A DNA stretch of 64,000 nucleotides from Hyphomicrobiales bacterium. Lineage in GTDB: Bacteria; Pseudomonadota; Alphaproteobacteria; Rhizobiales; Xanthobacteraceae. The stretch is from the NCBI GenBank assembly GCA_018335895.1, contig JAGXQU010000081.1, positions 8,045 through 72,044 on the forward strand, given 5' to 3'. The notes beneath the pieces were generated by a model that was not told the DNA's origin, made no database searches, and saw nothing but the letters and a program-made list of their open reading frames with translations. Made by a program: the position numbers and the translations under genes. Within the stretch, counting starts at the first letter, position 1. Each line of letters starts with the position of its first letter. Of this stretch, positions 8,957 to 32,745 are shown piece by piece.

Positions 8957-9004
8957 TCGACAATCTCCTACATGAGCGAGATTAGCGTCTCGCATGTAAG
9001 TAAC

Positions 9005-9647: not shown

Positions 9648-9655
9648 GCCCTACC

Positions 9656-11553: not shown

Positions 11554-11758
11554 TCCACAAAACAGAACACTCGCCAACCGCTGCGCGTTCTCGAACGTAG
11601 CTGCTTGCGCCTCGCTTTCTCAATCATCTTGAGATCGTGAACACGGCGGGTATTGCGCGATCGCCAAAATCACTTGGCGAAACGCTCAGCGTTGTCCGCG
11701 CGCTTTTTCTCCAACGCGGCGAAGCCGCATTCCCTCTATCGCTGAGAGGCACGAAAAC

Positions 11759-12580: not shown

Positions 12581-12608
12581 AGCACAAGAGCTGCTAGCGA
12601 CTCATCGT

Positions 12609-12932: not shown

Positions 12933-12953
12933 CTTTTAGACAAGGTATTTTTC

Positions 12954-13151
12954 ATGTCATCTGTTGAAGACGGATTGGACAAAACCAGTTTGCTTAAAAT
13001 CCTGATACGTGAGCTTGGTGACGTGGTCGATTTGGCAGCCATGTCTGGTTGCGATGCGCTCGCGCAGCGACTGAGCGATGCTCTCATTGAATCCAAAAGA
13101 CTTTACATAGCAACTCTTCGGGAGAATCGCCTTCAATATCGACATACCTAG
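12954..13151 (+). CDS. hypothetical protein (65 aa)
   Basis: ORF only. Confidence 0.25.
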   Translation: MSSVEDGLDKTSLLKILIRELGDVVDLAAMSGCDALAQRLSDALIESKRLYIATLRENRLQYRHT

Positions 13152-13173
13152 TTTCTTCGCTGCAAAGTATTAC

Positions 13174-17290: not shown

Positions 17291-17292
17291 CC

Positions 17293-18540: not shown

Positions 18541-18773
18541 CGGGCGCTATCACTTCAGTTGAAATAAATTTGGCGCACCAATCTATCTATTGAAGCCCGA
18601 TTATTTCCCTGCCTGCGGGCATTAGATCAATGCGTGCAGGATTCTTCTGTTAACGGGTAAATACAACCCGCGCCGCTAGGCCCCCTCAGCACCCGCCATT
18701 TTCTGTTTTCCGTTGAGTACGCCGGTTAAAGGTAGGGCAAGCGCATCGCTTCGCCCGATCGACGGAGCTTGTC

Positions 18774-20129
18774 ATGAGCAATCTTACGAAGCGCGGCGTG
18801 GAACTCACTATTGAATACATTCCGATCACGGAGATCAGGAACAACCCGAATAACGCAAGATCTCACGGACAAAAGCAGATTGAGAGGCTGGCGAAGGGTA
18901 TCGCTAAATTCGGCTTCCTGGTGCCAGTCCTCCTAAATGCCGAAGGCATCTTGCTCGCCGGGCATGCACGCGTTGAGGCTGCTGCCCTCGCCGGCTACGC
19001 TTCCATACCAGCAATTCGCACCCACCACTTGGATCCTGCTGAGCAGCGAGCCTTCGTGCTTGCAGACAACCGGATGGCCGAACTTGCGGTTTGGGACGAC
19101 CAGGCTCTCAAACGCGAACTTCAGTTTTTGACTGAATTTGACATTGACTTCGACTTCTCGACGATCGGCTTCGAGACCCCGGAGGTCGACTTCCTCCTCG
19201 GCGACGCAAAAGGTCCGGATAGCCCGGACGAAGCTGATATTGCGCCAATCCTCACACAGGCCGCGGTGACTGCGCCAAACGATTTGTGGGCGCTAGGAAA
19301 TCATCTTCTGTACTGCGGTGAAGCGCTTGATCCCTCATCCTATGAAGCGCTGCTCGGTAGCGACCGCGCGAGAATGGTCTTTTCAGATCCTCCTTACAAC
19401 GTACCTATCAACGGCCATGTTGGAGGCCTCGGCGCAAACCAGCATCGTGAGTTTGCGATGGCGGCCGGCGAAATGACCTCTGAGCAGTTTACCGCTTTTC
19501 TGACGAGCACATTTGAGCAAGCGGTAAAATTCTCCGTCGACGGCGCCATCGCCTATATCTGCATGGACTGGCGTCACGCTCATGAAATTCTACGCGCAGG
19601 TGAGGTTTTTACCCAACTCAAAAACATATGCGTCTGGGTGAAAAATAATGGTGGCATGGGATCGCTCTATCGATCCCAGCACGAGTTCGTATTCGTGTTC
19701 AAGAACGGCAGCGCCGCTCATATCAACAACGTGGAACTAGGCAAACATGGCCGCAATCGTACGAACGTCTGGGAGTATGCCGGCTTGAGCAGTTTCGGTA
19801 ACGACCGAGACAGCCTTCTTAAGGTCCATCCGACCGTGAAGCCCGTTGCCCTTGTCGCCGATGCTATCAAGGACTGCTCAAAGCGCGGTGATCTCATTCT
19901 TGATCAATTCGGCGGGTCTGGAACGACGATCATTGCAGCGGAGAAGACGCAGCGCCGAGCGCGGGTCGTTGAAATCGACCCGCTTTATGTCGACGCGACG
20001 ATCCGTCGTTGGCAGGCCTATACGGGGAAGACCGCAGTCTGCGCGCGAACCGGCATTTCGTTCTCAGAGAAAGAAACGTCCTTGAAAAGCGCCGTCGGAG
20101 AAAACGTAGCCGGTGAGGCTGCGTCATGA
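18774..20129 (+). CDS. ParB-like nuclease domain fused to N6-adenine/N4-cytosine DNA methyltransferase
   Basis: N-terminal ParB/Srx-like 'PNNARSHGQKQIERLAKGIAKFGFLVPVL', motif IV 'SDPPY' and motif I 'DQFGGSGTT'. Confidence 0.9.
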   Translation: MSNLTKRGVELTIEYIPITEIRNNPNNARSHGQKQIERLAKGIAKFGFLVPVLLNAEGILLAGHARVEAAALAGYASIPAIRTHHLDPAEQRAFVLADNRMAELAVWDDQALKRELQFLTEFDIDFDFSTIGFETPEVDFLLGDAKGPDSPDEADIAPILTQAAVTAPNDLWALGNHLLYCGEALDPSSYEALLGSDRARMVFSDPPYNVPINGHVGGLGANQHREFAMAAGEMTSEQFTAFLTSTFEQAVKFSVDGAIAYICMDWRHAHEILRAGEVFTQLKNICVWVKNNGGMGSLYRSQHEFVFVFKNGSAAHINNVELGKHGRNRTNVWEYAGLSSFGNDRDSLLKVHPTVKPVALVADAIKDCSKRGDLILDQFGGSGTTIIAAEKTQRRARVVEIDPLYVDATIRRWQAYTGKTAVCARTGISFSEKETSLKSAVGENVAGEAAS

Positions 20130-20506
20130 ACGACGATGAAAAGACGGGTTACAAGCAGCCGCCGAAAGCCGGTCAGTTCAAAGCAGGAAGATCGGGAAAC
20201 CCGAAGGGGCGCCCCAAAGGCACGCGCAATCTCAAGACCGACTTGAATGTGCTTTTGAGGAAACGGATCGTAGTCCGTGAAGATGGAGAAACTCGCTACG
20301 TCAGTCGTCAGGAAGCGATGTTACTCAGTCTCTTCAGCAAGGCGGTTCGCGGCGACGTGAAGGCTTCAAATAGCCTCTTGGCCATGGTTATAAAGCTCGA
20401 TCCACCGCCCCTAAAGAACGCCGAGTCCGAGACAGAAGCCGTGTCGGCGTCAGATAGTACGATCATCCAGCAGTTCTTCGAACGGAGCCGGTCAAATGGT
20501 TCCTAA
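20126..20506 (+). CDS. DUF5681-like protein (terminase small-subunit-like)
   Basis: 'SGNPKGRPKGTRN' motif. ATGA overlap with the methyltransferase, and precedes the large terminase. Confidence 0.65.
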   Translation: MNDDEKTGYKQPPKAGQFKAGRSGNPKGRPKGTRNLKTDLNVLLRKRIVVREDGETRYVSRQEAMLLSLFSKAVRGDVKASNSLLAMVIKLDPPPLKNAESETEAVSASDSTIIQQFFERSRSNGS

Positions 20507-21992
20507 CGCTGGCTCAATAGACATTACGCCGGAGGAGCGTGACGCAATATTGCGGAACGACTTCCTGTCTTTCTTTCGGAAGGCTTTCGCGGAACTGCAT
20601 CCGGGGCAGGAAATCGAGGACAACTGGCATCTCGAGGCCATCGCCCATCAGCTTGAGAGGGCGCGTAAAGGAGAGATCAAACGACTGATTATCAACGCCC
20701 CGCCGCGCTCGCTGAAGTCCTTGATGAGCGTCGTGGCGTTCAGCGCCTATGTCCTCGGCAAAGATCCCGGAAAAAGCATCATTTGCGCGAGCTACTCTCA
20801 AGATCTTTCGACAAAACACTCTTCCGATTTTCGCAGGGTCATGGACTCCGATTGGTTCCAGAAACTCTTTCGAACAACAATCCCCCTGAAGAGCACCGAG
20901 ACAGAATATAAGACCGCCAAGGGCGGCGCGCGCTACTCGACCTCGGTCGGAGGCACGGTCACGGGCTTTGGTGCCGACATCATCATCATTGATGACCCAT
21001 TGAATGCAGTAGACGCACATTCTGATGCCGCTCTACAGCGCCATCGGGATTGGTACTCTGGTGCGCTGGTTTCGCGGCTCAATAACAAGCAAACCGGCAC
21101 CATTATCTGCGTCATGCAGCGCCTCCATCCGGAAGACCTGACTGGATATCTGCTTGAGCAAGGCGGATGGGAGGTCTTGGATCTTCCTGCGATCGCTCTC
21201 GAAGACCGGGAAATTGTTCTCTTGCCTGATCCGATAATCAACCTCTCACGATCTTATGAATGGCGTGAAGGCGAGCCGCTGCAAGCGGCGCGTGAACCGT
21301 TACATGTACTGGAGCAGCTCAAAAGGCAGATCGGCACTGACAAGTTCAGCGCCCAATACTTGCAGCGACCCGTTTCGGCTGCCGGCAACATGCTGAAAGC
21401 CGAATGGCTTCGCTCTTACGAATTTCAACCGAGCAAGCAAGCGCACGACAAGATCGTGCAGAGCTGGGATACGGCAATGAAGGCCGCCGATATGAATGAC
21501 TACTCGGCCTGCCTCACGTTTCTCGTTCGCAACCACAATGAATATTATCTCGTTGACGTATACAGGCAGCGGCTGGAGTTCCCGGATCTTTCAAAGTTCG
21601 TGATTTCTCATGCGAAGCAGTTTCAGGCCGACACGATCCTGATCGAGGATAAGGCTTCCGGTACGCCGCTGATCCAGAACGTCAAGCGCGCGGGCTTACA
21701 AGCTGTGATCGGCATCAATCCTTCGAAGGACAAGAAAACCCGCATGTACGAGCAAACTCCGAAACTGGAAGCACAATCGCTTCTCATTCCACTTTCGGCA
21801 CCGTGGCTTTCCGATTTCAAAACTGAGTACCTCGCGTTTCCGTCAAGCAAGTATGATGATCAAATCGATGCCCTGTCGCAGTTTCTGGAATGGCAAGTGA
21901 ATCGCGACAACAATTTGTTCGAGGTTGACTGGGGGAACGACGAGGACGGTTCGCCGTCGCCGGAATCGATTCTAAGTTTGGTCGGAAAATGA
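20496..21992 (+). CDS. phage terminase large subunit-like protein
   Basis: ATPase-like 'INAPPRSLKS' and 'IIIIDDPLN', with a C-terminal nuclease-like region ending 'YDDQIDALSQFLEW'. Confidence 0.8.
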   Translation: MVPNAGSIDITPEERDAILRNDFLSFFRKAFAELHPGQEIEDNWHLEAIAHQLERARKGEIKRLIINAPPRSLKSLMSVVAFSAYVLGKDPGKSIICASYSQDLSTKHSSDFRRVMDSDWFQKLFRTTIPLKSTETEYKTAKGGARYSTSVGGTVTGFGADIIIIDDPLNAVDAHSDAALQRHRDWYSGALVSRLNNKQTGTIICVMQRLHPEDLTGYLLEQGGWEVLDLPAIALEDREIVLLPDPIINLSRSYEWREGEPLQAAREPLHVLEQLKRQIGTDKFSAQYLQRPVSAAGNMLKAEWLRSYEFQPSKQAHDKIVQSWDTAMKAADMNDYSACLTFLVRNHNEYYLVDVYRQRLEFPDLSKFVISHAKQFQADTILIEDKASGTPLIQNVKRAGLQAVIGINPSKDKKTRMYEQTPKLEAQSLLIPLSAPWLSDFKTEYLAFPSSKYDDQIDALSQFLEWQVNRDNNLFEVDWGNDEDGSPSPESILSLVGK

Positions 21993-22281
21993 CGTAATTC
22001 GCACCCTTGATAACAATAGGCGGCAACAGCCCGCCCTTGTTGCACGGCAACGATCGCGAACGTAGCGAACCCCTAGCTCTCGATCACAAGATGATCGAGC
22101 GCTTACCAACAAAGCAACAACATGGCGCTAATTCCGCTCGCCTTGGCCGGGCAAGCACGCATTCATGCTGCCACGAGGTGCGTCCTCTCCCGCACTCTCC
22201 CTGCCCCGCCAGCGCCGAAAATGGCCTCCGCGGGGCTCCGGCAGTGACAGCGATCCGCTGTCGCAACCGAATGGAGAGGCT

Positions 22282-22635
22282 ATGACAAAACGAAAGAAGA
22301 AGGCGGCCAACCGGCCGAAGAAGCAAAAACCGGCCAAGACTGCCGATTCACCTGCGCAGGTGCAGAACTCGAAAATCCAAGAAGGTAAGCAGAAGCCTCA
22401 CGACCGCGAGAACACCAAGCAGCAACTCTTGCTGGAGATGCTGAGCAAGAAGCCCGGCGCCAATATCGACGCCATCGTGAAGGCGACTGGATGGCTCCCG
22501 CATACCAGCCGCGCGATGATCTCCGGCTTGCGTAAGGCCGGCCACAAAATCGAGATAGAGCGAGGCAAGGACGGCAAAACGGTCTACCTGATCGTTGGCT
22601 CGAAAAAGCCGTCCGCAAAGGCGAGCCAGCGATGA
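22282..22635 (+). CDS. DUF3489 domain protein
   Basis: 'LLLEMLSKKPGANIDAIVKATGWLPHTSRAMISGLRKAGHKI'. GGAGAGG RBS lies before the ATG at 22282 (the track ORF starts at 22165). Confidence 0.75.
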   Translation: MTKRKKKAANRPKKQKPAKTADSPAQVQNSKIQEGKQKPHDRENTKQQLLLEMLSKKPGANIDAIVKATGWLPHTSRAMISGLRKAGHKIEIERGKDGKTVYLIVGSKKPSAKASQR

Positions 22636-23168
22636 ACCGGAAACCTTCATCGAATGCCGACGAGGCCGCGCGCAAGCGCGGCCTCGAAGATGCAAAGCAC
22701 AATGAAATCGCAGCCCAGATCGAGGAGATTCGTTCGCTGAACAAGGATCAGCTTCGGCAGAGCTGGGAGAAGATGTTCAAGAAGCCCGTCCCCGAGGCAC
22801 TGACCAAGGATCTGCTGGCACGAATGATTGCCTATCGGATTCAGGAAAAAGCATTTGGCGGGTTAGACCGCGCAACCGAGAAGATTCTTGAAAGCTACGC
22901 CCGAGGCGATAAGACCCAAACGCCCCAACGCCGGATGAAGTCCGGCACCGTCCTGCTCCGGGAATACCAAGGTGTTCGGCACACGGTCACCGTCGCGGAT
23001 GGCGGCTTCATCTGGAACGACAAGAAATACGCGAGCCTCAGCACGATCGCGAAGGAAATTACCGGTACGTCGTGGAACGGGCCGCGTTTCTTCGGACTAC
23101 GCGAGGAGAAGAAGGCAAAGTCCACACCCGAAGCCGATGCCTCATTGAAGCGGGGTATCGCGCGATGA
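22632..23168 (+). CDS. DUF2924 domain protein
   Basis: 'LRQSWEKMFKKPVPEALTKDLLARMIAYRIQEKAFGGL'. 4-nt overlaps on both sides. Confidence 0.8.
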   Translation: MNRKPSSNADEAARKRGLEDAKHNEIAAQIEEIRSLNKDQLRQSWEKMFKKPVPEALTKDLLARMIAYRIQEKAFGGLDRATEKILESYARGDKTQTPQRRMKSGTVLLREYQGVRHTVTVADGGFIWNDKKYASLSTIAKEITGTSWNGPRFFGLREEKKAKSTPEADASLKRGIAR

Positions 23169-24721
23169 AGACCCTAAGCAAGAAGCAACTGCGCTGCGCG
23201 GTGTATACGCGCAAGTCGACCGACCACAATTTAGAGCTTGAGTTCAACTCGCTCGACGCCCAACGCGAGGCTTGTGAGGCTTATATCAAGAGCCAGGCCC
23301 ATGAAGGCTGGCGTCTCATCCCCACGAAATACAACGACGGCGGGCACTCCGGTGCGAGCCTTTCGCGCCCCGCTCTCCAAACGCTTCTCGACGACGTCCG
23401 CGCCGGCAAGATCGATGTAATCGTGGTCTACAAAATTGACCGCCTGACGCGCTCACTCACCGATTTCGCGAAGCTCGTGGAAGTCTTTGATCAGCAGTCG
23501 GTATCCTTTGTCTCGATCACGCAGTCGTTCAATACGACGACGAGCATGGGACGCCTTACACTCAACGTGCTCCTCTCCTTCGCGCAGTTCGAGCGCGAGG
23601 TAATCGGCGAGCGCGTCCGTGACAAGATCTCGGCTTCCAAAAAGAAGGGCATCTGGGTCGGCGGTCCCGTCCCCATGGGCTATCGGGTAGCCGATAAGAA
23701 GGTCTCGATTGTGCCGGCAGAAGCCAAGACCGTGCGGATGATTTTTGAGCGGTATCTCGCCCTGAAATCCATCAGCGTCTTACAGAACGAGTTGGATCAG
23801 AAGGACATTCGCACCCGCAAGCAGAAACTCTCCAATGGCCGTATCCGAGGTGGATGCCGCTATGGCAAGGGCACGCTCTATCATCTCCTGAAGAACCGCT
23901 TCTATGTCGGCGAGGTCGCTTACAAGGGCTCCATCAACAAGGGGGAGCACGAACCCATCATCGAACGAGCCACGTTTGAAGTTGTGCAGAAGCTGCTCTC
24001 CGACAACGCCGTCGAACGCAATGCGAACCGCCATAGCTCAAACGCCCTCCTCACCGGCTTGCTCTTTGACGACCGCGGCAACCGGATGACGCCGACCTAT
24101 TCGCGGAAGCACGGCGCTCGATATCGCTACTACGTCTCTCACGCGCTCCTGCAGTCGCGGAAAGCGGAAGCAGGCTCGGTAACGCGGGTATCAGCGACAG
24201 AGATCGAGGAGAACATCGTAATTGCACTCCAACAGAACGAAGTTCTCTCTCAAGAAGAAGCCAATATTACGCCTGAGTTGCTTCACACTGCAGTCGAGAA
24301 AATCACGCTTCGAGAGAACGAACTAAAGATCGAACTGACTGATAAGTCGATCGGCAAAAAGGGCATTCTCTTTGTGCAATGGAGCAAGAAATACCCAGCG
24401 GCTCCCAAGGCCGTTATTCATGCGCCTGTGACAAGCGAGAAGCGGCTAGGGCCTGAAGCCCGCGATGCGCTGCTCACCGCAATTGCACGCGCACGCAAAT
24501 GGATAACTGGTCTAGAGTCAGGAGCCGTAAGCACCATCTCGGAGATCGCCGAGCGAGAGGGCAACGTTGAACGCCATATCAGGCTGCTCCTGCCGCTCGC
24601 GTTTACACCGCCAGCCCTTATAACCTCTCTTATCGAGGAAAGCGCGCCTCACGATCTGACTGTCACATGGCTCGCCAAGCATATACCGTTCGAGTGGGAT
24701 ACCGATCCGACCACTTGTTAG
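23165..24721 (+). CDS. large serine recombinase (resolvase/invertase N-domain + recombinase + zinc-ribbon-like regions)
   Basis: 'CAVYTRKSTD' catalytic Ser context and 'DRLTRSL...SVSFVSITQSFNTTTSMGRL'. ATGA overlap with DUF2924. The track ORF starts at 23072. Confidence 0.95.
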   Translation: MKTLSKKQLRCAVYTRKSTDHNLELEFNSLDAQREACEAYIKSQAHEGWRLIPTKYNDGGHSGASLSRPALQTLLDDVRAGKIDVIVVYKIDRLTRSLTDFAKLVEVFDQQSVSFVSITQSFNTTTSMGRLTLNVLLSFAQFEREVIGERVRDKISASKKKGIWVGGPVPMGYRVADKKVSIVPAEAKTVRMIFERYLALKSISVLQNELDQKDIRTRKQKLSNGRIRGGCRYGKGTLYHLLKNRFYVGEVAYKGSINKGEHEPIIERATFEVVQKLLSDNAVERNANRHSSNALLTGLLFDDRGNRMTPTYSRKHGARYRYYVSHALLQSRKAEAGSVTRVSATEIEENIVIALQQNEVLSQEEANITPELLHTAVEKITLRENELKIELTDKSIGKKGILFVQWSKKYPAAPKAVIHAPVTSEKRLGPEARDALLTAIARARKWITGLESGAVSTISEIAEREGNVERHIRLLLPLAFTPPALITSLIEESAPHDLTVTWLAKHIPFEWDTDPTTC

Positions 24722-24724
24722 TTT

Positions 24725-24742
24725 GCAGAAAAAGCAAATAAG
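24725..24742. repeat. att-like direct repeat, copy C (GCAGAAAAAGCAAATAAG)
   Basis: 16/18 identical to 15847-15864. Lies 4 nt after the recombinase stop codon. Confidence 0.55.
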
Positions 24743-24757
24743 TCGGCGAACGAGCAA

Positions 24758-25645
24758 TCATCCGCCGGCATTCCAGAATGCGACAAGCGCATCTAGGAAT
24801 GCTTTACAGTTTTCGGCCCGCCACGTGACTTTAGACGTGGGATGGAACAGATAAAACCTCTCGTTCGCGCAGACAAATTTTGAACGGTCAGCGGAATAAA
24901 GCCAGTTAAATGTATCCGAGAAATTCGCTACGTGGCTGCCGCCGAACTTCGCTGGTGGAACGTTGTAAAGCAGCCCCTCTATGAAATACGAGGGCGCCAA
25001 TCCCTCCGCGATGCGACCCTGGTCGAGCATCCGGTTGCGCATGTTCTTGTACATCCGGATCGTCGGCTTGAACCATTGATTGGTCGCCTGATGCTTGGTC
25101 GTGCAATTGGCCATGTGCATCTTGGGATAATTCACAACTTGCGTTCCATCAGGCAGGAAGAAGCAAACGCCTTCGTGATAGTCCTGCGCGCCGCCGTTCG
25201 TATATTGGAAATACTTCCGAAACTCAGTGCACGCGAGCACGTCGCAATCTCGTCTGTTTCCGACACCCGGAATGAAGATGGCTTTGTCGCCGACGGTAAC
25301 GCCGTTTCCAAATTGCGCGCGAATATGCGCCGCAACCTGCTGCTTGAATTTTTCTGCTGACCATTCTGTGGGGCTTCGGGTCGCATCGAAGCGCGCTCGC
25401 TGGTCGCCCTGCAGATCGTTGACATCGAAGTAGTGGATGGAATGATCGCAGATCACGACATCCACGTCGCTATCGCGCACGACGTTGGTATCGTTACCAT
25501 AGGAGCCCTGCAGAAAAATATCGCGCGTTGCATAGGGTGCGTCGGCACGTTCCAGGGCGGTTTTGACGGTATTATAGGTTGCCTTCGAGGTTGCGGCTGC
25601 CCCGATATGGCTCCAGGCCTCGAGTTGATTCTCGTTAATTGCCAT
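24758..25645 (-). CDS. CD-NTase/SMODS-like nucleotidyltransferase (putative cyclic oligonucleotide synthase), C-terminus ...WNAGG
   Basis: Pol-beta NTase motif 'LQGSYGNDTNVVRDSDVDVV', a later acidic 'RRDCDVL' and CD-NTase-like 'PSYFIEGLLYN'. 9-nt gap after the patatin gene. Confidence 0.7.
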   Translation of the reverse strand: MAINENQLEAWSHIGAAATSKATYNTVKTALERADAPYATRDIFLQGSYGNDTNVVRDSDVDVVICDHSIHYFDVNDLQGDQRARFDATRSPTEWSAEKFKQQVAAHIRAQFGNGVTVGDKAIFIPGVGNRRDCDVLACTEFRKYFQYTNGGAQDYHEGVCFFLPDGTQVVNYPKMHMANCTTKHQATNQWFKPTIRMYKNMRNRMLDQGRIAEGLAPSYFIEGLLYNVPPAKFGGSHVANFSDTFNWLYSADRSKFVCANERFYLFHPTSKVTWRAENCKAFLDALVAFWNAGG

Positions 25646-25654
25646 CGGCCCGCC

Positions 25655-26629
25655 TCACGCAAGCACGTTCTTGAGTTGCAATTCATACTTTTCGAACGAC
25701 TGGCGGCCTTTGGACCAAAGGGCACCGAGCTTATCCGGGTCGTGCTCAAACATATCCGTGGCCATCTCGGGCTCGGTGTATCTTTCGTTGATCCGGATGG
25801 TCTCTATGTCGGAGAAAAGAACTTCCCGCAGTTGCTCCATCGACTGTGTATTTATTTCCATTACTTTTTGAAGCAGGCGAACGGTGAACAGATAGCCGAC
25901 CCAGCGCAGAACGCTGAAAACGGAACGGCGCGGCTCGGGATATTCTCCGACGCCGATGCTGACCACTCGAATATCGGACCTGGGGACCTGAAGCGCTCCT
26001 ACCGCATCGGCAATGGCATAAAGTGTCGGGTTATTCGCGCAATAACCGCCGTCGGCGAGAAGATACTTTTCTCCCTGACTCGTGGTGATTTCCTTGCGAC
26101 AGAAAAACGGATATGCGGAACACGAAGCCTGCACTGCGTCGGCCATACGCACGCCAAAACCCGGAACGAACGATGCGCTGCGCCGGTAAGCCTGCATAGG
26201 ATCAGATTTGAATATAAAGGGCCGCTCGTCCCGCCAATTAGTGGCGACGATACTGATGCGGGTCTGTGCTGCCTCAAAGGTCGCATCCCGGAGCACTTCG
26301 CCAGCGAGGCGCTCAAGGGCGGCCGACTTTTTCCAAGGGGTCCAGGGCTTCATCACCGGTACTACATGTTGCCGGTAAAGCTCCGTGATTTGATCGACCG
26401 ATCTTCCGAGGCACAGCAGGGATGCGATGATAGAGCCGGTGCTCGTTCCCACGATGAGATCGAACGACTTGTACAACGGCCCCTGGGTCAGAGCTTCGAT
26501 CTCTTTTAGTACGCCGAGAGTATAAAAACCTTTCGCGCCTCCACCATCGAGGGCCAGCACGCGAAACGGCTTCTTCGGCGCGTTCGCGCTCGCGTTGCGC
26601 TCTGGTGCTGAGTTCGCTTCGGCACTCAT
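25655..26629 (-). CDS. patatin-like phospholipase (CapV-like effector)
   Basis: 'LALDGGGAKG' oxyanion motif, 'GTSTG' nucleophile elbow and 'LADGGYCANNP' catalytic Asp. The ATG at 26629 overlaps the upstream stop (ATGA). Confidence 0.9.
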   Translation of the reverse strand: MSAEANSAPERNASANAPKKPFRVLALDGGGAKGFYTLGVLKEIEALTQGPLYKSFDLIVGTSTGSIIASLLCLGRSVDQITELYRQHVVPVMKPWTPWKKSAALERLAGEVLRDATFEAAQTRISIVATNWRDERPFIFKSDPMQAYRRSASFVPGFGVRMADAVQASCSAYPFFCRKEITTSQGEKYLLADGGYCANNPTLYAIADAVGALQVPRSDIRVVSIGVGEYPEPRRSVFSVLRWVGYLFTVRLLQKVMEINTQSMEQLREVLFSDIETIRINERYTEPEMATDMFEHDPDKLGALWSKGRQSFEKYELQLKNVLA

Positions 26630-27030
26630 CGGGCGAACAAGCCTTTCAGCCAATTCCAAGCGCGACCGATCCAATCGCGATCATATAGTTTGTCGTAGTA
26701 AGCGGCGCGCTTGGCCTTCTCGTGCTCTCGGCCGGCCATGACGGCTTCCGGGCTCCAGGACTCACACCAAACGATATCGCCGTCATCGATGACGTAGTGG
26801 GAGTTACACGGCTGCGTCCAATTTCCGACCGATGGCCAAAGGCTGGGCCCATGCGGCGTGTCTTTAAATGACCAGCGACTCGGCAGGATCGGCGTCGTCA
26901 CCTTCAAGCCGCATCCACAAGCGCAAAGATGCATCGCCGTGCCGTATTCCTCGGACACGTAGAGGATGCCGGGCTCGAACAGCTTCGGCATATAGTGGAC
27001 GCGTAGAAGGCTAATCCTGTTGAGCTTCAT
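26626..27030 (-). CDS. DUF6527-like small Zn-binding protein
   Basis: 'GILYVSEEYGTAMHLCACGCG...PSVGNWTQPCNSHYVI' (CxCxC + CxxH). The likely start at 27030 overlaps the E1 gene end by 20 nt. The track ORF starts at 27069. Confidence 0.65.
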   Translation of the reverse strand: MKLNRISLLRVHYMPKLFEPGILYVSEEYGTAMHLCACGCGLKVTTPILPSRWSFKDTPHGPSLWPSVGNWTQPCNSHYVIDDGDIVWCESWSPEAVMAGREHEKAKRAAYYDKLYDRDWIGRAWNWLKGLFAR

Positions 27031-28237
27031 CGTCCTTAGACCTTGCCACGATCTTGGTGTCCGGAACACGAAAAACGAAATGGAAATCGGTCGTGCTGTC
27101 GAAGTAGAAGCCCTTGATCTTCTTGTACTGGATGATCGCGAGCGTGGCGTTCAGCGCGTTCAACTCGGGGATTTGGATGTTTAAGCGATACTCGGCGTCA
27201 AGATGGTCGACGAGCATCGCGAACTCTTGATCCATCCGCGCTTGCGCGTCTTCGGGCGAATAGTAAGTCGCGCGGAGCTGGCCTGAAAGCGGGCCCTGAT
27301 TCCGGTCGAGGCCCATACCGACGTCGATAAAAGGAATTTTCAGCGCGATTAGGAGCTTGAAAATCTCCTTGCGCGAGCTCCCCTTATCGACCGCGACGAA
27401 GGCGAAGGTCGCGCCCTTCAAATCTTCTGCGCAGGTGGAGTCGATGTACTTGTGTGTCAACTTCAGGCCGTGCCGAAGGTTCTCGTAGCGTGCTTGATAT
27501 ACGTCGGCCTTGGGCCGTTCGAACTCCGCACCCTCGGTGCCGTCGAAGCGGCCCGGCGAACGAAACTGGCTGTGAATGTGAAACACGTCGCCGTCGAAGC
27601 CACGGATTTCCTTCACCGCCGTCTTCGTCAGAAAATCCAGAAGGTAAGCGCCGGTGCCGCCGAGGCCGATCACCACGACGACTTCGTCTTTAAACTTCTG
27701 CGATAAGTCCATGATTTCCGCGCGGCCTGTCAGGGTATCGGCGATCTTGAAGACGGAGTCGTTGTCGGTTTCGATCTTGCGAAACGTGAAGACCTTGGCC
27801 TCGTTCGGGAACAAAGCCATCGCCGGGCCCGAAATAAGTGTCCGGTAGTTCTCGATCTTCGCGAAGAAGTCCGGGTAATCGACCATCTGGCCGTTCACCA
27901 GGAGCTTATTCGAGAACTGGCGCGTGACGACGATGTCGGGCGACGACGCGCTTAACGTTAACGACGCCGGGTTATCGCCGATCAGCTTGATCGGTGTGCC
28001 GTCAATGTTGTGGGGCGACGACCCGGTGAAAAACACTTGGTGATTGTGCTGCTTCACCTTCTCCGGCGTCGTATAGACGAGTTTCGTCACGAACGCGCCG
28101 ACTTGGAGCGCGCGGTTGGCGTCGAGATAGGGGATATCGCGGACGATCAAATAGCCGGAGCTATCGACCGCGACCGCGTACCCCTTCTCGACCAGACGAC
28201 GGATGTCGTCGTTATGATTCGCCAGTTGGCGATACAT
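27011..28237 (-). CDS. ThiF/E1-like adenylyltransferase with Cys-free E2-like N-terminal domain
   Basis: 'VVVVIGLGGTGAYLLDF...GFDGDVFHIHSQFRSP'. The N-terminal ~190 aa contain no Cys and carry 'SSPHNIDG'. The whole protein has a single Cys. Confidence 0.8.
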   Translation of the reverse strand: MYRQLANHNDDIRRLVEKGYAVAVDSSGYLIVRDIPYLDANRALQVGAFVTKLVYTTPEKVKQHNHQVFFTGSSPHNIDGTPIKLIGDNPASLTLSASSPDIVVTRQFSNKLLVNGQMVDYPDFFAKIENYRTLISGPAMALFPNEAKVFTFRKIETDNDSVFKIADTLTGRAEIMDLSQKFKDEVVVVIGLGGTGAYLLDFLTKTAVKEIRGFDGDVFHIHSQFRSPGRFDGTEGAEFERPKADVYQARYENLRHGLKLTHKYIDSTCAEDLKGATFAFVAVDKGSSRKEIFKLLIALKIPFIDVGMGLDRNQGPLSGQLRATYYSPEDAQARMDQEFAMLVDHLDAEYRLNIQIPELNALNATLAIIQYKKIKGFYFDSTTDFHFVFRVPDTKIVARSKDDEAQQD

Positions 28238-28916
28238 GGAAGTCCATCCCGTCTTTGACTTGAACCGAGTGACCCTTCGGAAGATCGCCTTCCGGCTTCT
28301 TCGGCGGGCCCTTGGTGAAGGTGATCGTGTAGGGAATGTCGGGCTGGCCCGAGTAGTCGGAGAGGCCGACGATCTCGGCGTAGGAGATTTTCTTTTCTTC
28401 CCACTTATGCGGTGTGGCGTTCACGATGATCGTGACGCCGGTCTTGCGGGTTTTGAACCGTTCGACGCCGCGCTCGCCGATTTTGACTTCTTCGTCGTCG
28501 GCGATGACCTTGTCCGGCTGGTTTTCGAGTTCCTGAAGGAGCTCGACATGCGCGCCGTCCTTGCCGACGAGCGTCTTGATCGCTTCGGCGGTAAGCGTTT
28601 TCTTCGGCCATTCAAGGCTGAGGCCGTCGACGACGAACTTGAACGTGCCGTCGCCTTCGATCACGAAGAAGCGGGACACTTTCGAGAGGTCCGTGGTTTC
28701 CTGCGGACGCAGCGTTTCCAACTCGAAGCTCGGCAATTGCGCGAGGATCACGAAGGTTTCGAGTGGATGCGCGTTCACGGCCTCTGCGATCTGGCCGCCG
28801 GTGACTTTCCGGTCGTCGAAGGAGACGGTCCGGAAGCGGAACTTTGCGTCGCCGATTTGGGCGGGGAAGCCGCCGCCATGATTCGGGCCTGAGCCCGCTT
28901 TTGCACTGTCGTTCAT
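28212..28916 (-). CDS. multiubiquitin (three tandem beta-grasp Ubl repeats) protein
   Basis: Three internal repeats marked by 'DRKVTGGQIAEAV', 'KKTLTAEAIKTLV' and 'EKKISYAEIVGLS'. The 3' end overlaps the E1 gene by 26 nt. Confidence 0.7.
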   Translation of the reverse strand: MNDSAKAGSGPNHGGGFPAQIGDAKFRFRTVSFDDRKVTGGQIAEAVNAHPLETFVILAQLPSFELETLRPQETTDLSKVSRFFVIEGDGTFKFVVDGLSLEWPKKTLTAEAIKTLVGKDGAHVELLQELENQPDKVIADDEEVKIGERGVERFKTRKTGVTIIVNATPHKWEEKKISYAEIVGLSDYSGQPDIPYTITFTKGPPKKPEGDLPKGHSVQVKDGMDFHVSPTGES

Positions 28917-28985
28917 TTTTTCGCCTTTCCTGCCGGGAGATTGTGATTACCTAATAAGCCGGAAAGCCCTCTGCGCCCGGTTCAT

Positions 28986-29039
28986 GCTTGATTTATCAAG
29001 CGCTGCTTGCTGCGTCAACATTCTAGTTTGCAGCGCTTG
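28986..29039. promoter_or_regulatory. inverted repeats in the divergent promoter region (candidate HTH operator)
   Basis: GCTTGAT-TT-ATCAAGC (28986-29001) overlaps a 10-bp inverted repeat, CAAGCGCTGC (28997-29006) / GCAGCGCTTG (29030-29039). Confidence 0.4.
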
Positions 29040-29085
29040 AAATTTCAGGCACGATGACCGAATCAACCATTCGAAAGGAGAAATC

Positions 29086-29436
29086 GTGAGCTTAGGCAAG
29101 GCATTGCGTGACGTTCGCGCTCTGCGCGGAATAAGCCTTCGAGCCGTTGAAGAGGCGACGGGAATTTCGAACGCGTACCTTTCGCAACTTGAACGGGGCG
29201 ACGCGGTGCGACCTGCACCCGACAAACTTCAAGCACTCGCGAGGTTCTACGGTATTCCTTACGAGCAACTTCTTCGCGATGCGGGCTACCTCAAGAATAG
29301 CGACGGGGACGCCGAGCGAGACCAAACTAGCGCCGTTCAGGCGGCGTTGATGAGCGCCAAGCTCACGCCTGAAGAGGAAGATGCAGTCGTCAAGTACATC
29401 CAGTTTTTGCGTTTCGAGAACAATCGAAAGAAGTGA
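29086..29436 (+). CDS. XRE-family HTH regulator (CapH-like)
   Basis: 'LRGISLRAVEEATGISNAYLSQLERGD'. GTG start preceded by AAAGGAG. Confidence 0.85.
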   Translation: MSLGKALRDVRALRGISLRAVEEATGISNAYLSQLERGDAVRPAPDKLQALARFYGIPYEQLLRDAGYLKNSDGDAERDQTSAVQAALMSAKLTPEEEDAVVKYIQFLRFENNRKK

Positions 29437-29445
29437 GGCAAGCGC

Positions 29446-30348
29446 TTGGCCCTACCGAAGCAGAAGATCGCGGTAAGGCCGGACTCGGAGGCCAAGCTTG
29501 CGAAGTTGGTGCGAAAACTCCTTCGCGAAGCGGGGGTAGAGGCTATTTTGCCGACGCCGCTTGACCGACTCTTCGAGGTCGCAAAGGTCAAGAACATCGC
29601 GGAACTGCCGGACGAAGAAGCGTTCCTAAAGTCGCTGTCGAAAAAAGTTCAGAACTTCTTCCTCAGCGCGAAGCAGAAGCTTCGCGGAATCGCCGATCTT
29701 CGCGAACGCGCTTCCTACGTCCCTCCCGATCCGAACAACATCGGGCGTGAGCGCTTCGCCAAGGGCCACGAGCTCGGCCACAACGTAATCCCGTGGCACA
29801 ACATTGATCCCGCCTATCTCGATGACGACGAGTCGCTCGGCGCGAGCGCCAAAGGCGTGTTCGAGCACGAGGCGAATTTCTTTAGCTCCGAGGTAATCTT
29901 TCAAGGTCAGGCATTCCAAAAGCGTGCTCGCGACTTCGCGCCGTCCTTCAGCGCGATCTTCCAACTCGCGAAAGAAACCGGTGCTTCCAACCAAGCGACG
30001 GCGTGGCGTTTCGTCGAAGAGCAAGACGAAGCGATTGCGTTGCTCATCTATTATCCCAGTAAGGCGATCGACGAAGAGGGTAATTCTGTTCTCTCTCTAT
30101 GGCGTTCGGTCGGATCGCCTCAATTCAATCGTCGCTTTCCTGAGATCGATGTTCCGCGCGCGGTGCGGACGGGACATCCATGGGTCGCCGCACGTGATTT
30201 CAACAAAGTTTTCGATGGCACCGGCGAACTCCTGAACGGCGACCAAAATGTGACGTTCGAGTGGAATAGTTGGTGGAACCGACGCGCGCTTTGTGTCCTG
30301 ATCCGGCGGAAGCCGCGGCTCAGCATCGTTCGCGATATTCTTGCGTGA
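29446..30348 (+). CDS. ImmA/IrrE-family zinc metallopeptidase (CapP-like)
   Basis: HExxH 'GHELGHNVIPWH' plus downstream 'FEHEANFFSSEV'. Starts 10 nt after the HTH gene. Confidence 0.85.
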   Translation: MALPKQKIAVRPDSEAKLAKLVRKLLREAGVEAILPTPLDRLFEVAKVKNIAELPDEEAFLKSLSKKVQNFFLSAKQKLRGIADLRERASYVPPDPNNIGRERFAKGHELGHNVIPWHNIDPAYLDDDESLGASAKGVFEHEANFFSSEVIFQGQAFQKRARDFAPSFSAIFQLAKETGASNQATAWRFVEEQDEAIALLIYYPSKAIDEEGNSVLSLWRSVGSPQFNRRFPEIDVPRAVRTGHPWVAARDFNKVFDGTGELLNGDQNVTFEWNSWWNRRALCVLIRRKPRLSIVRDILA

Positions 30349-30690: not shown

Positions 30691-30740
30691 TGGTTGGGGC
30701 GCCAGGATTCGAACCTGGGAATGGCGGAATCAAAATCCGT
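30691..30740 (-). pseudogene. 3' fragment of tRNA-Gln(UUG): anticodon arm to CCA, with no acceptor 5' strand or D-arm
   Basis: The minus strand reads ACGGA-TTTTGAT-TCCGC CATT CCCAGG-TTCGAAT-CCTGG CGCCCCA A CCA. The upstream 26 nt cannot form an acceptor stem or D-arm. Confidence 0.7.
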
Positions 30741-30800
30741 CTAACTCCCCAGAGATTTCAGGGCCCTTTCTGAAATTTGTGACAGTGTTCCCACATTTGC

Positions 30801-30861: not shown

Positions 30862-32496
30862 CTAAGCAGCATTTCTGCGGGCGTCCTGCAGAATCATATC
30901 GGCTGCTTTCTCGCCGATTAGAACCGCCGGCGCATTGGTATTCGGCGAAACCATCGACGGCATGATCGAGATATCCGCGACGCGAAGGCCGTCGATTCCC
31001 CGAACACGCAGTCTGGCATCGACGACATCCATGGGACCACTGCCCATGCGGCACGTACTGATGCCATGCCAAGCGGTCTGGCCCGTTTGCCGGATGTAGT
31101 CCAGCAAATCGTTTTCGTCCGTGACTTCCGGGCCGGGCCGCGTCTCGCGAACGATATAGGGTCTGAGCGACGGTTGCGCCGCAATCTCCCGCACCATGCG
31201 CACCGCTCGCCGATAGGTGCCGATGTCGTCTTCGTGCGTCAGGTAGTTCACTTTGATCGCGGGATCTTCGCGCGGGTCTGCGCTCTTTATATGAACACTG
31301 CCTCGCGACTCGGGGCGAATCTTGAATACACCGATCGAAAATCCGGGGAAGTCGTCGATACCAGCGGCCTTGCTGCGCGAATAGCGGTCCTTGCCGCTGA
31401 TCAACACGATCTGGATTTTCAGATCCGGACTCGGAAGATCGGGTTTGGATTTTGCAAGCGCATGTACCGTCGAGGAGGTGCCGCTCAGCATGCCCTTGCG
31501 GGTGAGCACGTATTTCAGGCCTTCGAGATAGCGGCGCCACGCACTCGTCATGATGTCGTTGATGGTGATGCGTTTCGTGCATTCATAACTGAAGCGGAAC
31601 TGCAGGTGATCGCTTAAATGCTCGCCCACGCCGGGAAGATCGGCGACCACCGGAATGCCGTGCGCGCGCAGCAGCGCCGGATCGCCGATACCCGATAGCT
31701 CGAGGATCTGCGGGGTCTTCAGCGCGCCGGCGGCGAGAATAACTTCGCCGCGGCAACGTGCTGTTTTCTTGACGTCGTCTTGAAGATACTCGACGCCGAC
31801 TGCCCGCTTCTGCTCAAGGAGCACGCGCGTCGCCAATGCGCGCGTTTCGATGGTCAGGTTCTTCCGCTTCCTGGCTGCTTTCAGATAAGCAAGATCGGTA
31901 CTCGATCGGACACCCTTGCGGTCGATGCTTTGCTGCAGATACCCAACGCCTTCGAACACGCGCCCGTTGTAGTCTTCATTCTCAGGAATTCCAGCATCGA
32001 CGCAGGCTTTAAGGTAGGCGTCTGATAGCGGATCGGGATCGTAGGTGCCGCGATTGAGAACTTTGACCGCTCCGCCATGGCCGCGAACCGCGGGATCCCC
32101 TTCGGGGTAGTCTTCCAGCTTCTTATAGTAAGGAAGAATGTCTTCGAATCCCCAGCCCTCGTTGCCCCAGTTCTTCCAGCGATCGAATTCTTCCGGTTCC
32201 CCGCGCACCCATGCCGTTCCATTAACCGCACTCGAACCGCCCAGCAGCTTTCCGCGCGGCGTATAGATTTGCTGACCAAATAGCTCCGGCTCAGGCTCCG
32301 TCCTGAACGGCCAAACATATTTCTCGTTGGTGAGGAGTTTTCCAACGCCGAGGGGAATACGAATCCAAACCGAGTTGGGCTCGCCGCCGGCTTCCAGCAG
32401 CAGAACCTTGAATTCCGGCGTCTCGCTTAAACGGGCCGCCACCGCGGCGCCAGCTGATCCCGCTCCGACGACGATAAAGTCGAATTCTTCTTTCAC
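30862..32496 (-). CDS. GMC-family FAD oxidoreductase (choline dehydrogenase-like)
   Basis: '[21 protein letters not shown]'. The GTG at 32496 is preceded by GGGGAG. The track ORF extends to 32559. Confidence 0.9.
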
Positions 32497-32745
32497 GTGT
32501 TCTCCCCTAAGCGGGCAGCCGTTCGGCGCCGCGCCTCCGTACGCAATTTGCGGGACCAAATGGAATCGGATCCGCCCGCTTCTTTTCGTAGCGAAGCGAA
32601 ACGCAGTTGCAGCAGCGAATCCACGCCCAAGGTCCGAATATCAGCTATACAAAGCCAGAACGATCCTCACACTGTATATAGGGGCGCTCAGGCAGCGAAC
32701 AGCCGGAAGTCCGCTTTCCGGAGGGAAAAGGGACTCGCAACACAA

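What the first reader, a model, noticed from the sequence alone, without database searches (positions are those of the whole stretch)
24758..30348. Five-gene operon joining a polyubiquitin / E2-E1 / Zn-protein module to a CBASS-like patatin + CD-NTase pair, under CapH/CapP-like control
Read on the minus strand from 28916 to 24758, the operon has five genes. (a) A 234-aa protein has three visible internal repeats (DRKVTGGQIAEAV / KKTLTAEAIKTLV / EKKISYAEIVGLS), typical of tandem beta-grasp 'multiubiquitin' proteins. (b) A 408-aa ThiF/E1 protein (VVVVIGLGGTGAY...FDGDVFHIHSQFR) has a ~190-aa Cys-free N-terminal domain. (c) A DUF6527-like protein carries HLCACGCG...QPCNSHY. (d) A patatin lipase carries DGGGAKG, GTSTG and ADGG. 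(e) A 295-aa pol-beta NTase carries LQGSYGNDTNVVRDSDVDVV and PSYFIEGLLYN, like CD-NTase/SMODS cyclases. The junctions are a 26-nt overlap (a/b), a ~20-nt overlap (b/c), an ATGA overlap at 26626-26629 (c/d) and a 9-nt gap (d/e), so this looks like one translationally coupled operon. A divergent XRE-HTH + HExxH ImmA/IrrE pair resembles the CapH/CapP regulators of CBASS. Canonical type II CBASS is cyclase-effector-Cap2 (Cys-containing E2/E1)-Cap3 (JAB). Here the order is inverted, a poly-Ubl and a Zn protein are added, no JAB is present, and the E2-like domain lacks Cys. PolyUbl + E2/E1 + metal-binding-protein neighbourhoods were predicted computationally by Iyer, Burroughs and Aravind and, as I recall, were recently studied as 'Bub' operons. 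I am not aware of them being described as wired to a cyclic-oligonucleotide synthase plus phospholipase effector.
Basis: partly seen in the sequence, partly recalled or inferred. Interest (0 to 1): 0.92.

Follow-up and report, generated by a model that had tools for sequence, protein, structure and literature searches.

The report
Bub ubiquitin-like operon fused to CBASS
A bacterial mobile island carries one DNA-damage-controlled operon that joins a ubiquitin-like protein-tagging module of unknown role (Bub) to a well-known phage-defence pair (a cyclic-nucleotide synthase plus a membrane-destroying lipase). This rare natural fusion gives a direct way to test what Bub does.

Summary
On the minus strand, 28916 to 24758, five tightly packed genes encode:
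- BubA, with three ubiquitin-like domains;
- BubBD, an E2-E1 fusion;
- BubE, a DUF6527 Zn/Ser-His protease;
- a CapE-type patatin phospholipase;
- a clade-E CD-NTase (CdnE).

Divergent CapH/CapP regulators lie upstream.

Genes 1-3 are a complete Type II Bub (6E.2) operon with all published catalytic residues conserved. Genes 4-5 are a complete CdnE/CapE two-gene CBASS.

The CBASS pair is a discrete 1.9-kb cassette. It starts at the bubE stop codon (ATGA overlap) and ends in a terminator-like hairpin. A relative that is 88% DNA-identical lacks exactly this block.

The same seven-gene layout occurs in four diverged alphaproteobacterial lineages, with two junction types, and all genes are under purifying selection. 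It is nevertheless rare. 78 of 80 other Type II Bub loci have no CD-NTase or patatin within 10 kb, one has a CD-NTase 3.4 kb away on the other strand, and none of 80 other CdnE loci has Bub. The regulator, Bub and CBASS modules recombine independently.

Best reading: two normally autonomous defence modules share one CapH/CapP-controlled transcript. Direct biochemical coupling, like Cap2/Cap3 in Type II CBASS, is possible but unshown. I found no paper describing this fusion. It is a new variant of known kinds.

The parts
29446..30348 (+). capP-like gene: M78/ImmA-IrrE-type metallopeptidase (300 aa, HELGH motif)
   Evidence: PADLOC capP 3.7e-19 and weak Pfam Peptidase_M78. The HExxH motif is read directly from the translation.
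29086..29436 (+). capH-like gene: XRE-family HTH repressor (116 aa)
   Evidence: Pfam HTH_3 9e-13 and PADLOC capH 2.7e-11.
28917..29085 (.). Divergent control region. It holds a sigma-70-like site on the minus strand (29048-29020) bracketed by two related palindromes (within 28982-29006 and 29030-29054). These are candidate CapH operators.
   Evidence: Function is inferred, not tested.
28212..28916 (-). bubA: ubiquitin-like protein with three beta-grasp domains (Ubl3), ending in the family-typical ...TGES
   Evidence: Pfam Multi_ubiq, three stretches, 6e-39. PDB 9CD2, E. coli ZDHYS365 Ubl3, 2e-30. All 85 Type II BubA sequences examined end in TG[QE]S/A.
27011..28237 (-). bubBD: E2-like (DUF6791) plus E1 adenylation (ThiF) fusion. 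The published catalytic residues are conserved: S109, with H66 and K111/K127 beside it, R226 and Y350.
   Evidence: The AlphaFold model's best PDB fold hits are Citrobacter BubCD 9EAE/9EAV/9EA4.
26626..27030 (-). bubE: DUF6527 serine protease (134 aa; the ORF can extend to a GTG at 27069). It has the C4 zinc site (C36, C38, C40, C75) and the Ser67-His78 dyad.
   Evidence: Pfam DUF6527 2.5e-20. These residues are invariant in 80 BubE sequences. Their roles come from PMC11601596.
25655..26629 (-). capE-like patatin phospholipase effector (324 aa). Its ATG overlaps the bubE stop codon (ATGA).
   Evidence: PDB 9IOM 'cUMP-AMP-activated phospholipase' 1e-106. PADLOC CBASS phospholipase 2e-144. NCBIfam DS2_1 460 bits against a cut-off of 400.
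24758..25645 (-). cdnE: clade-E cGAS/DncV-like nucleotidyltransferase (295 aa). The GS and DxD motifs are intact and the protein ends ...WNAGG.
   Evidence: PDB 6E0K Rm-CdnE 1.5e-61. PADLOC cyclase 2e-113. NCBIfam DS2_2 422 bits against a cut-off of 350. Invariant G47, S48, D60, D62, D133 and D135 in alignment A2.
24744..24767 (-). Terminator-like GC hairpin with a T-rich tail, spanning the cdnE stop codon. It is conserved in L009.
24711..26635 (.). Two-gene CBASS cassette: a 1925-bp block that is absent from the 88%-identical relative L178. Its right edge coincides with the end of homology to L009.
23072..24721 (+). Large serine recombinase of the surrounding mobile island, convergent with the operon (context).
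   Evidence: Resolvase and Recombinase Pfam hits on the identical gene in L001-L003.
30694..30751 (-). 58-nt tRNA-like element just beyond capP. It may be an island edge or attachment-site remnant.
   Evidence: Rfam tRNA 29.1 bits against a gathering score of 29. ARAGORN does not call it.

Best explanation
The locus is a composite, DNA-damage-inducible defence locus on a mobile island. Divergent capH/capP regulators control one polycistronic operon, bubA-bubBD-bubE-capE-cdnE.

The first three genes are a complete, catalytically intact Type II Bub ubiquitination-like module. BubBD adenylates BubA and passes it through Tyr and Ser oxyesters to targets, and BubE cleaves the conjugates.

The last two genes are a complete CdnE/CapE two-gene CBASS. 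On a phage cue, CdnE makes a cyclic dinucleotide, probably 3'3'-cUMP-AMP. This activates the patatin lipase, which destroys the membrane and aborts the infection.

The CBASS pair is a promoter-less 1.9-kb cassette docked at the bubE stop codon, so its expression depends on the CapH-repressed bub promoter. The likely sequence is: DNA damage, CapP cleaves CapH, and both modules are made together.

Shown here: gene identities, conserved catalytic residues, operon-type spacing, cassette boundaries, recurrence in four lineages, and purifying selection. Inferred: co-transcription, the identity of the nucleotide, and the DNA-damage trigger.

My judgement is that the coupling is mainly regulatory. These are two separable immune modules stacked on one switch, not an obligate single machine.
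For: Identities. Conserved catalytic residues.

Operon structure: overlaps of 26, 20 and 4 nt and a 9-nt gap. The only promoter-like site on the operon strand lies upstream of bubA, and a terminator-like hairpin sits at the cdnE stop.

Cassette: L178 is about 87-88% DNA-identical over capP to bubE, and homologous again in the recombinase gene, but lacks window 26635-24711.

Recurrence: the same seven-gene layout occurs in L005, L009 and L181/L182. There are two junction types: the ATGA overlap, and TAG plus 9 nt. L181 and L009 share the unit's outer edges while their flanks are unrelated.

Selection: all genes have dN/dS of 0.04-0.24 between window, L009 and L181.

Separability:
- 78 of 80 genome Bub loci have no CD-NTase or patatin within 10 kb, and one more (L058) has only a CD-NTase fragment 3.4 kb away on the other strand.
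- None of 80 metagenome CdnE loci has Bub, while about 74 have the patatin gene directly upstream.
- Close Bub relatives stand alone: L089, L174, L176, L177 and L178.
- L092 carries a different defence candidate, PDC-M48B at 1.8e-91, in the same slot.
- The same roughly 92-95% identical cassette sits behind Bub alleles that are only 70-75% identical.

The link between CapH/CapP and Bub, and its DNA-damage logic, come from PMC11601596 and bioRxiv 2022.04.27.489752.
Against: There are no transcript data. An internal promoter inside bubE cannot be excluded, and alphaproteobacterial promoters fit the sigma-70 consensus poorly.

The fusion persists across saturated synonymous divergence: window and L005 are about 70-76% identical in all five proteins. 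The Bub segment has also been re-assorted repeatedly without breaking the junction. Both points could mean selection for a real functional interaction, which would make 'mere stacking' too weak a description.

In the closest CdnE clade whose context is known, 4 of 6 loci are Bub-linked.
Confidence: 0.55

Rival explanations
1. Bub is the functional counterpart of Cap2/Cap3 for this CdnE CBASS, making one integrated machine. BubBD would conjugate BubA to CdnE, CapE or a phage protein, or would activate the CdnE C-terminal GG itself, to prime or gate cyclic-nucleotide signalling. BubE would reverse the conjugation.
For: The logic parallels Type II CBASS, with an E2-E1, a protease and a CD-NTase. 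Gene order is strictly conserved, with a 0-9 nt junction in four lineages and two junction types. The unit travels with common outer edges. The fusion is retained across deep divergence. CdnE ends in Gly-Gly.
Against: The GG terminus is shared by relatives without Bub, L004 and L008, and by 26 of the 120 top homologues. BubA has its own invariant TG[QE]S tail, unlike the CdnE tail. Bub alleles only 70-75% identical are swapped behind an almost unchanged cassette, so there is no sign of co-evolution. A near-identical Bub operon exists without the cassette. Both families are overwhelmingly autonomous.
Confidence: 0.27
2. The adjacency is incidental. Two unrelated defence systems landed side by side in the cargo hotspot of an integrative island and are transcribed independently.
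For: The locus lies in a mobile island beside a serine recombinase. The slot after bubE holds other cargo in relatives, and Tle1-like hydrolase genes recur nearby. The modules have different histories.
Against: There is no intergenic space. The patatin ATG overlaps the bubE stop in three lineages, and the fourth has a 9-nt gap. The two modules always have the same order and strand. No promoter-like site lies upstream of capE and no terminator-like site follows bubE on the operon strand. Random island neighbours would vary in spacing and orientation.
Confidence: 0.1
3. Layered immunity without physical contact. Bub would act as a first, non-lethal response that tags phage or host proteins, as Bil does. 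The co-expressed CdnE/CapE pair would be the abortive back-up if the first response fails.
For: Bil, a related Ubl system, tags phage tail proteins. Adjacent complementary systems such as Panoptes or PanDA next to CBASS are documented. The two modules share damage-inducible control.
Against: No Bub operon has yet been shown to protect against phage. Sequence data cannot distinguish this reading from simple stacking.
Confidence: 0.08

Closest known systems
Type II Bub (6E.2 / DUF6527) operon, for example E. coli ZDHYS365 BubA-BubBD-BubE (Ye, Gong, Corbett and colleagues; PMC11601596, PMC11601603)
   Same: It has the same three genes in the same order, with the same 26-nt bubA/bubBD overlap. BubA is a three-domain Ubl3. 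The E2 domain is Cys-free with an invariant Ser, and the E1 has an invariant Tyr and Arg. BubE has the C4 zinc site and the Ser-His dyad. CapH/CapP lie upstream, as in 31% of published Bub operons, and the locus is on a mobile element.
   Different: Here the operon continues without a break into a patatin and CD-NTase cassette. The Bub papers I could read describe no such effector or cyclase genes.
E. coli CdnE-CapE CBASS, the core of DefensePredictor system DS-2 (PDB 6E0K-type CdnE and 9IOM CapE; PMC13092281)
   Same: It has the patatin-then-cyclase order, with a few-nt gap. The matches are full-length and strong, and both NCBIfam DS2_1 and DS2_2 score above their cut-offs. This two-gene unit is what about 74 of 80 related loci show.
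   Different: There is no diadenylate cyclase third gene. The pair has no upstream region of its own and is fused behind bubE.
Type II CBASS (CD-NTase + effector + Cap2 E1/E2 + Cap3 JAB)
   Same: A ubiquitin-like conjugation enzyme and a de-conjugating protease share an operon with a CD-NTase and a phospholipase. The CD-NTase has a C-terminal glycine.
   Different: The conjugation module is of a different family (Bub). It works through Ser/Tyr oxyesters rather than Cys thioesters and has a separate Ubl substrate. Its protease is a DUF6527 protein rather than a JAB protease. The gene order is inverted. There is no evidence that the CD-NTase is the conjugated species.
CapH/CapP-regulated immune operons (Lau et al. 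2022)
   Same: A divergent HTH repressor and an M78 peptidase lie upstream, with palindromes over the promoter. Such regulators are already known upstream of both CBASS and 6e.2 operons.
   Different: Here a single regulator pair would govern both kinds of system at once. The window's CapH/CapP are only about 30% identical to those of the other composite loci, so the regulator module has been swapped.

Membership tests
Type II Bub operon | BubA: a ubiquitin-like protein with 1-3 beta-grasp domains and a conserved C-terminal tail | tested here: met
   Multi_ubiq in three stretches, PDB 9CD2 at 2e-30, and the TGES tail matching 85 of 85 family members.
Type II Bub operon | BubBD: an E2-E1 fusion that lacks catalytic Cys and has an invariant E2 Ser (with Lys and His), an adenylation Arg and a crossover-loop Tyr | tested here: met
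   DUF6791 plus ThiF. S109, H66, K111/K127, R226 and Y350 are invariant in 78 sequences. The protein has a single Cys, at position 269. The fold matches Citrobacter BubCD. The correspondence to E. coli S106, R219 and Y342 is by position, not by direct alignment.
Type II Bub operon | BubE: a DUF6527 protein with a C4 zinc site and a Ser-His dyad | tested here: met
   Pfam 2.5e-20. C36, C38, C40, C75, S67 and H78 are invariant.
Type II Bub operon | No JAB/JAMM peptidase | tested here: met
   None of the seven proteins has a JAB match.
Type II Bub operon | ATP-dependent Ubl conjugation through oxyester intermediates | not testable with these tools
   This needs biochemistry.
CBASS (CdnE/CapE two-gene type) | A CD-NTase with the GS...DxD...D active site | tested here: met
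   PDB 6E0K at 1.5e-61. G47, S48, D60, D62, D133 and D135 are invariant. PADLOC cyclase 2e-113.
CBASS (CdnE/CapE two-gene type) | An adjacent nucleotide-activated effector, here a patatin lipase with GxSxG and DGG motifs | tested here: met
   PDB 9IOM at 1e-106, with GTSTG and DGG aligned identically. PADLOC effector 2e-144.
CBASS (CdnE/CapE two-gene type) | Synthesis of a cyclic nucleotide, and phage defence | not testable with these tools
   Homology suggests cUMP-AMP, but this is inference only.
Type II CBASS | A Cap2 E1-E2 protein with catalytic cysteines | tested here: not met
   PADLOC E1-E2 models reach only 2e-3 over about 50 residues. The E2 domain is Cys-free.
Type II CBASS | A Cap3 JAB deconjugase | tested here: not met
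   No JAB domain is present.
Type II CBASS | A conserved C-terminal Gly/Ala on the CD-NTase, used for conjugation | tested here: inconclusive
   The protein ends in GG, but so do relatives without Bub or Cap2.
DS-2 (DefensePredictor) | A phospholipase and a cGAS-like NTase of the DS2_1 and DS2_2 families | tested here: met
   NCBIfam scores of 460 bits (cut-off 400) and 422 bits (cut-off 350).
DS-2 (DefensePredictor) | An essential diadenylate cyclase as third gene | tested here: not met
   None of the seven proteins has a DAC match. The gene next to cdnE is a serine recombinase.
CapH/CapP regulator pair | An HTH repressor and an HExxH M78 peptidase, divergent from the regulated operon | tested here: met
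   PADLOC capH and capP.
CapH/CapP regulator pair | CapH binds the operon's promoter and is cleaved by CapP after DNA damage | not testable with these tools
   Candidate palindromes lie over the promoter-like site. There are no binding data.

The most novel reading that the evidence does not exclude
In this alphaproteobacterial clade, Bub has been recruited as the conjugation arm of a CdnE/CapE CBASS, as a non-cysteine, Ubl-using analogue of Cap2/Cap3. This would give Bub its first biological role: BubA conjugation to CdnE, CapE or a phage target would set the threshold for abortive signalling. The repeatedly re-assorted Bub segment could then reflect an arms race with phage inhibitors.
Probability: 0.25. 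Interest if true: 0.85.

Novelty: new variant of a known kind. Interest (0 to 1): 0.6.

Why it matters
Bub operons are biochemically characterised, but their authors state that no Bub operon has yet been shown to protect against phage and that its targets are unknown.

This fusion puts Bub on the same damage-inducible transcript as a bona fide abortive-infection CBASS. It recurs in four lineages and is under purifying selection. That is the strongest genomic hint so far that Bub acts in anti-phage immunity.

It also provides a compact seven-gene construct of about 5.6 kb in which Bub's contribution can be read out through a known effector pathway.

Finally, it illustrates how promoter-less CBASS cassettes dock behind other immune operons, and how regulator, sensor and effector modules are re-assorted.

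Tried and rejected
1. Does the CdnE C-terminal GG mark Bub- or Cap2-type conjugation? Rejected as evidence. 26 of the 120 top homologues end in GG, including the loci without Bub, L004 and L008.

2. Is a 441-aa protein near CdnE in L004 and L008 a shared hidden accessory? No. The two proteins are unrelated to each other and absent from the window.

It gave the background rate (0 of 80 with Bub) but no new composite loci.

4. The viral-contig scan with BubBD found one Bub locus at 51% identity and no CBASS.

5. Plasmid searches found 127 records with BubBD and 34 with CdnE. None of the 25 records listed for each is shared.

6. The supplementary tables of the Bub paper are not held, so I could not check whether any of its 544 catalogued operons is a composite.

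7. Was the cassette gained or lost in the window/L178 lineage? This is undecidable. Cassette dS to L009 and L181 (about 0.75-0.95) is similar to window-L178 dS (0.3-0.85).

8. The AlphaFold model of BubBD was only moderate (pLDDT 69). It confirmed the Bub-type E1 but did not test the E2 domain separately.

Full report
OBSERVATION. On the minus strand there are five head-to-tail ORFs: 28212-28916 (234 aa), 27011-28237 (408 aa), 26626-27030/27069 (134/147 aa), 25655-26629/26674 (324/339 aa) and 24758-25645 (295 aa). The junctions are a 26-nt overlap, a 20-nt overlap, a 4-nt ATGA overlap and a 9-nt gap. Independent gene calls on three metagenome contigs carrying the identical BubBD give the same starts. 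Divergently, on the plus strand, lie a 116-aa HTH gene (29086-29436) and a 300-aa HExxH peptidase gene (29446-30348).

IDENTITIES, GENES 1-3.
- Gene 1 has three Pfam Multi_ubiq stretches (6e-39) and matches the crystal structure of E. coli ZDHYS365 Ubl3 (9CD2, 2e-30).
- Gene 2 is DUF6791 plus ThiF and NCBIfam PRK06153.1-2 (1.7e-174). Its AlphaFold model (pLDDT 69) finds the Citrobacter BubCD structures as best PDB folds.
- Gene 3 is DUF6527 (2.5e-20).

The literature names this trio the Type II Bub (formerly 6E.2) operon: BubA, BubBD and BubE. BubBD works through a Tyr oxyester on the E1 domain and a Ser oxyester on the E2 domain. BubE is a Ser-His protease with a C4 zinc site (PMC11601596).

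The window's proteins keep all of these residues. In BubBD, S109, H66, K111/K127, R226 and Y350 are conserved. In BubE, C36, C38, C40, C75, S67 and H78 are conserved. Each is invariant across about 80 homologues. BubA ends in TGES, like all 85 Type II BubA proteins examined. BubBD has a single Cys (C269) and none in the E2-like half.

IDENTITIES, GENES 4-5 AND THE REGULATORS.
- Gene 4 matches the solved 'cUMP-AMP-activated phospholipase' 9IOM at 1e-106, with the GTSTG and DGG motifs aligned. It also matches the PADLOC CBASS phospholipase effector (2e-144).
- Gene 5 matches Rm-CdnE 6E0K over its full length (1.5e-61) and the PADLOC CBASS cyclase (2e-113). Its GS/DxD/D residues are invariant.
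- Both genes exceed the NCBIfam cut-offs for DS2_1 and DS2_2. These are the phospholipase and cGAS-like genes of DefensePredictor system DS-2, which has an essential diadenylate cyclase as a third gene. No such gene is present here.
- The regulators match PADLOC capH (3e-11) and capP (4e-19).

OPERON ANATOMY. The only sigma-70-like site on the operon strand lies upstream of bubA (29048-29020). Two related palindromes that could be CapH operators bracket it. A GC hairpin with a T-rich tail spans the cdnE stop (24767-24744) and is conserved in L009. There is no intergenic DNA between bubE and the patatin gene. Co-transcription is inferred from this layout, not shown.

COMPARATIVE GENOMICS: THE FUSION RECURS. 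The same seven-gene layout occurs in four lineages:
- the window group (L001-L003);
- L005, an alphaproteobacterial MAG;
- L009, a Xanthobacteraceae MAG;
- L181/L182.

Window, L009 and L181 share the ATGA junction and the MSAEA... patatin start. L005 has a different junction, TAG plus 9 nt. L181 and L009 are 90-99% DNA-identical from capP into bubA and 84-97% identical over patatin-cdnE, but unrelated outside the unit, so the seven genes move as one block. All genes are under purifying selection, with dN/dS of 0.04-0.24.

COMPARATIVE GENOMICS: THE FUSION IS RARE AND SEPARABLE.
- Of 80 Type II Bub loci from GTDB genomes, only L009 has the pair. One more (L058) has a CD-NTase fragment 3.4 kb away on the other strand.
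- Of 80 metagenome CdnE loci at 44-55% identity, about 74 have the patatin gene directly upstream and none has Bub. Most have no tight third gene.
- Within the closest Bub clade (BubBD 66-93% identical), L178, L089, L174/175, L176, L177 and L090/91 lack the pair.
- L092 carries instead an MBL-fold protein that matches the PADLOC candidate PDC-M48B (1.8e-91), directly after bubE.

COMPARATIVE GENOMICS: CASSETTE BOUNDARIES AND MOSAICISM. The most telling relative is L178. It is about 87-88% DNA-identical to the window from capP to seven nucleotides before the bubE stop codon (window 26636), and homologous again from window 24710 into the recombinase gene. It lacks the intervening 1925 bp. Homology to L009 ends at the same right edge. 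The CBASS pair is therefore a discrete cassette.

The modules are mosaic. Window versus L009 or L181 gives 92-93% protein identity for patatin and CdnE, 70-75% for Bub proteins and about 30% for CapP. L181 versus L009 gives 97% for CapP, 75% for BubBD and 92-95% for the cassette. Synonymous divergence in the Bub segment is 0.9-2.5, against 0.25-0.5 in the flanks. That pattern indicates allelic replacement rather than fast protein evolution. Neighbour-joining trees place the Bub-linked and unlinked members interleaved in both families.

INTERPRETATION. The locus joins two normally autonomous immune modules under one CapH/CapP switch. CapH/CapP are known to de-repress adjacent operons after DNA damage, and they are already known upstream of both CBASS and 6e.2 operons separately.

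The most economical mechanism has three steps. Damage or infection triggers CapP to cleave CapH. This produces a bubA-to-cdnE transcript. The Bub conjugation machinery and the CdnE/CapE abortive pathway are then made together. CdnE most likely makes cUMP-AMP, inferred from the CapE and CdnE homologies.

Whether Bub acts on the CBASS proteins is open. Three points favour coupling: the strict junction in four lineages, the shared outer edges of the unit, and persistence across saturated divergence (window versus L005 is about 70-76% in all five proteins). Four points argue against it: the cassette is gained or lost cleanly, Bub alleles are swapped behind an almost unchanged cassette, other cargo occupies the same slot, and the GG terminus of CdnE is not specific to Bub-linked loci.

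I weight the readings as follows: regulatory stacking about 0.55, direct coupling about 0.27, incidental adjacency about 0.1, and layered defence without physical contact about 0.08.

CONTEXT. The operon sits at the edge of a mobile island at 16.5-30.7 kb. The island carries an MBL/RMMBL protein, a ParB-methyltransferase, DUF5681, a terminase large subunit, DUF3489, DUF2924 and a large serine recombinase. On its right side is a 58-nt tRNA-like element. This agrees with the published tendency of Bub operons to lie in tRNA-associated mobile elements. Metal-efflux genes lie to the left of the island.

NOVELTY. The parts are all known families. The combination is not described in any paper I could search. 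The Bub authors report no effector linkage and no defence phenotype. I could not read their supplementary catalogue, nor run PADLOC or DefenseFinder system calling. I classify the locus as a new variant of known kinds, of moderate to high interest because it makes the open question of Bub's role directly testable.

Noticed in passing
L092:8670-12953 (also L093): In a Bub operon 69% identical to the window's, bubE is followed 34 nt later by an MBL-fold protein that matches the PADLOC candidate system PDC-M48B (1.8e-91). After it come a 219-aa unknown protein, a nucleoside 2-deoxyribosyltransferase-like protein and two more unknowns. The slot after bubE appears to accept different defence cargo.
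   Followed up: partly
L061:3908-4327; L013:11610-12389: Other Type II Bub operons have a tightly abutting, co-oriented downstream gene. It is an HNH/PtuB-like nuclease in L061 and a CoiA_N-domain protein in L013. Most of the 80 loci have none.
   Followed up: partly
L004:4228-6570; L089:8807-10471; L181:7706-9133: T6SS_Tle1-like (PF09994/DUF2235) hydrolase genes recur next to the Bub operon, the CdnE/CapE pair or both, in otherwise different contexts. They may be another cargo gene of the same islands.
   Followed up: no
window 16490-24721: Mobile-island backbone, conserved in L001-L003: a 266-aa unknown protein, an MBL/RMMBL nuclease-like protein, a ParB-N6/N4 methyltransferase, DUF5681, a terminase large subunit, DUF3489, DUF2924 and a large serine recombinase. 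It has a terminase but no other visible virion genes.
   Followed up: partly
window 30694-30751 (minus strand): A 58-nt tRNA-like Rfam hit exactly at the gathering threshold (29.1 against 29 bits), which ARAGORN does not call. It lies between capP and the first core gene, a GMC oxidoreductase at 30862-32559. It may be an attachment-site remnant.
   Followed up: no
window 10180-10274: ARAGORN calls a 95-nt 'tRNA-Pyl (cta)' here, but it lies inside an NrsF anti-sigma ORF (9656-10336) and Rfam does not support it. It is probably a false positive.
   Followed up: partly
window 934-15294: A metal-resistance-type gene set lies left of the island: an RND pump (AcrB-family, HlyD and OEP components), an ECF sigma factor with NrsF, and a heavy-metal P-type ATPase. 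L005 likewise has copper-oxidase and thiol-redox genes next to its composite locus.
   Followed up: no
window 29086-30348 compared with L005, L009, L089 and L181: The window's CapH/CapP (shared with L178) are only about 25-35% identical to the CapH/CapP of the other close Bub loci, which are 75-97% identical to each other. The regulator module has been exchanged independently of Bub.
   Followed up: yes
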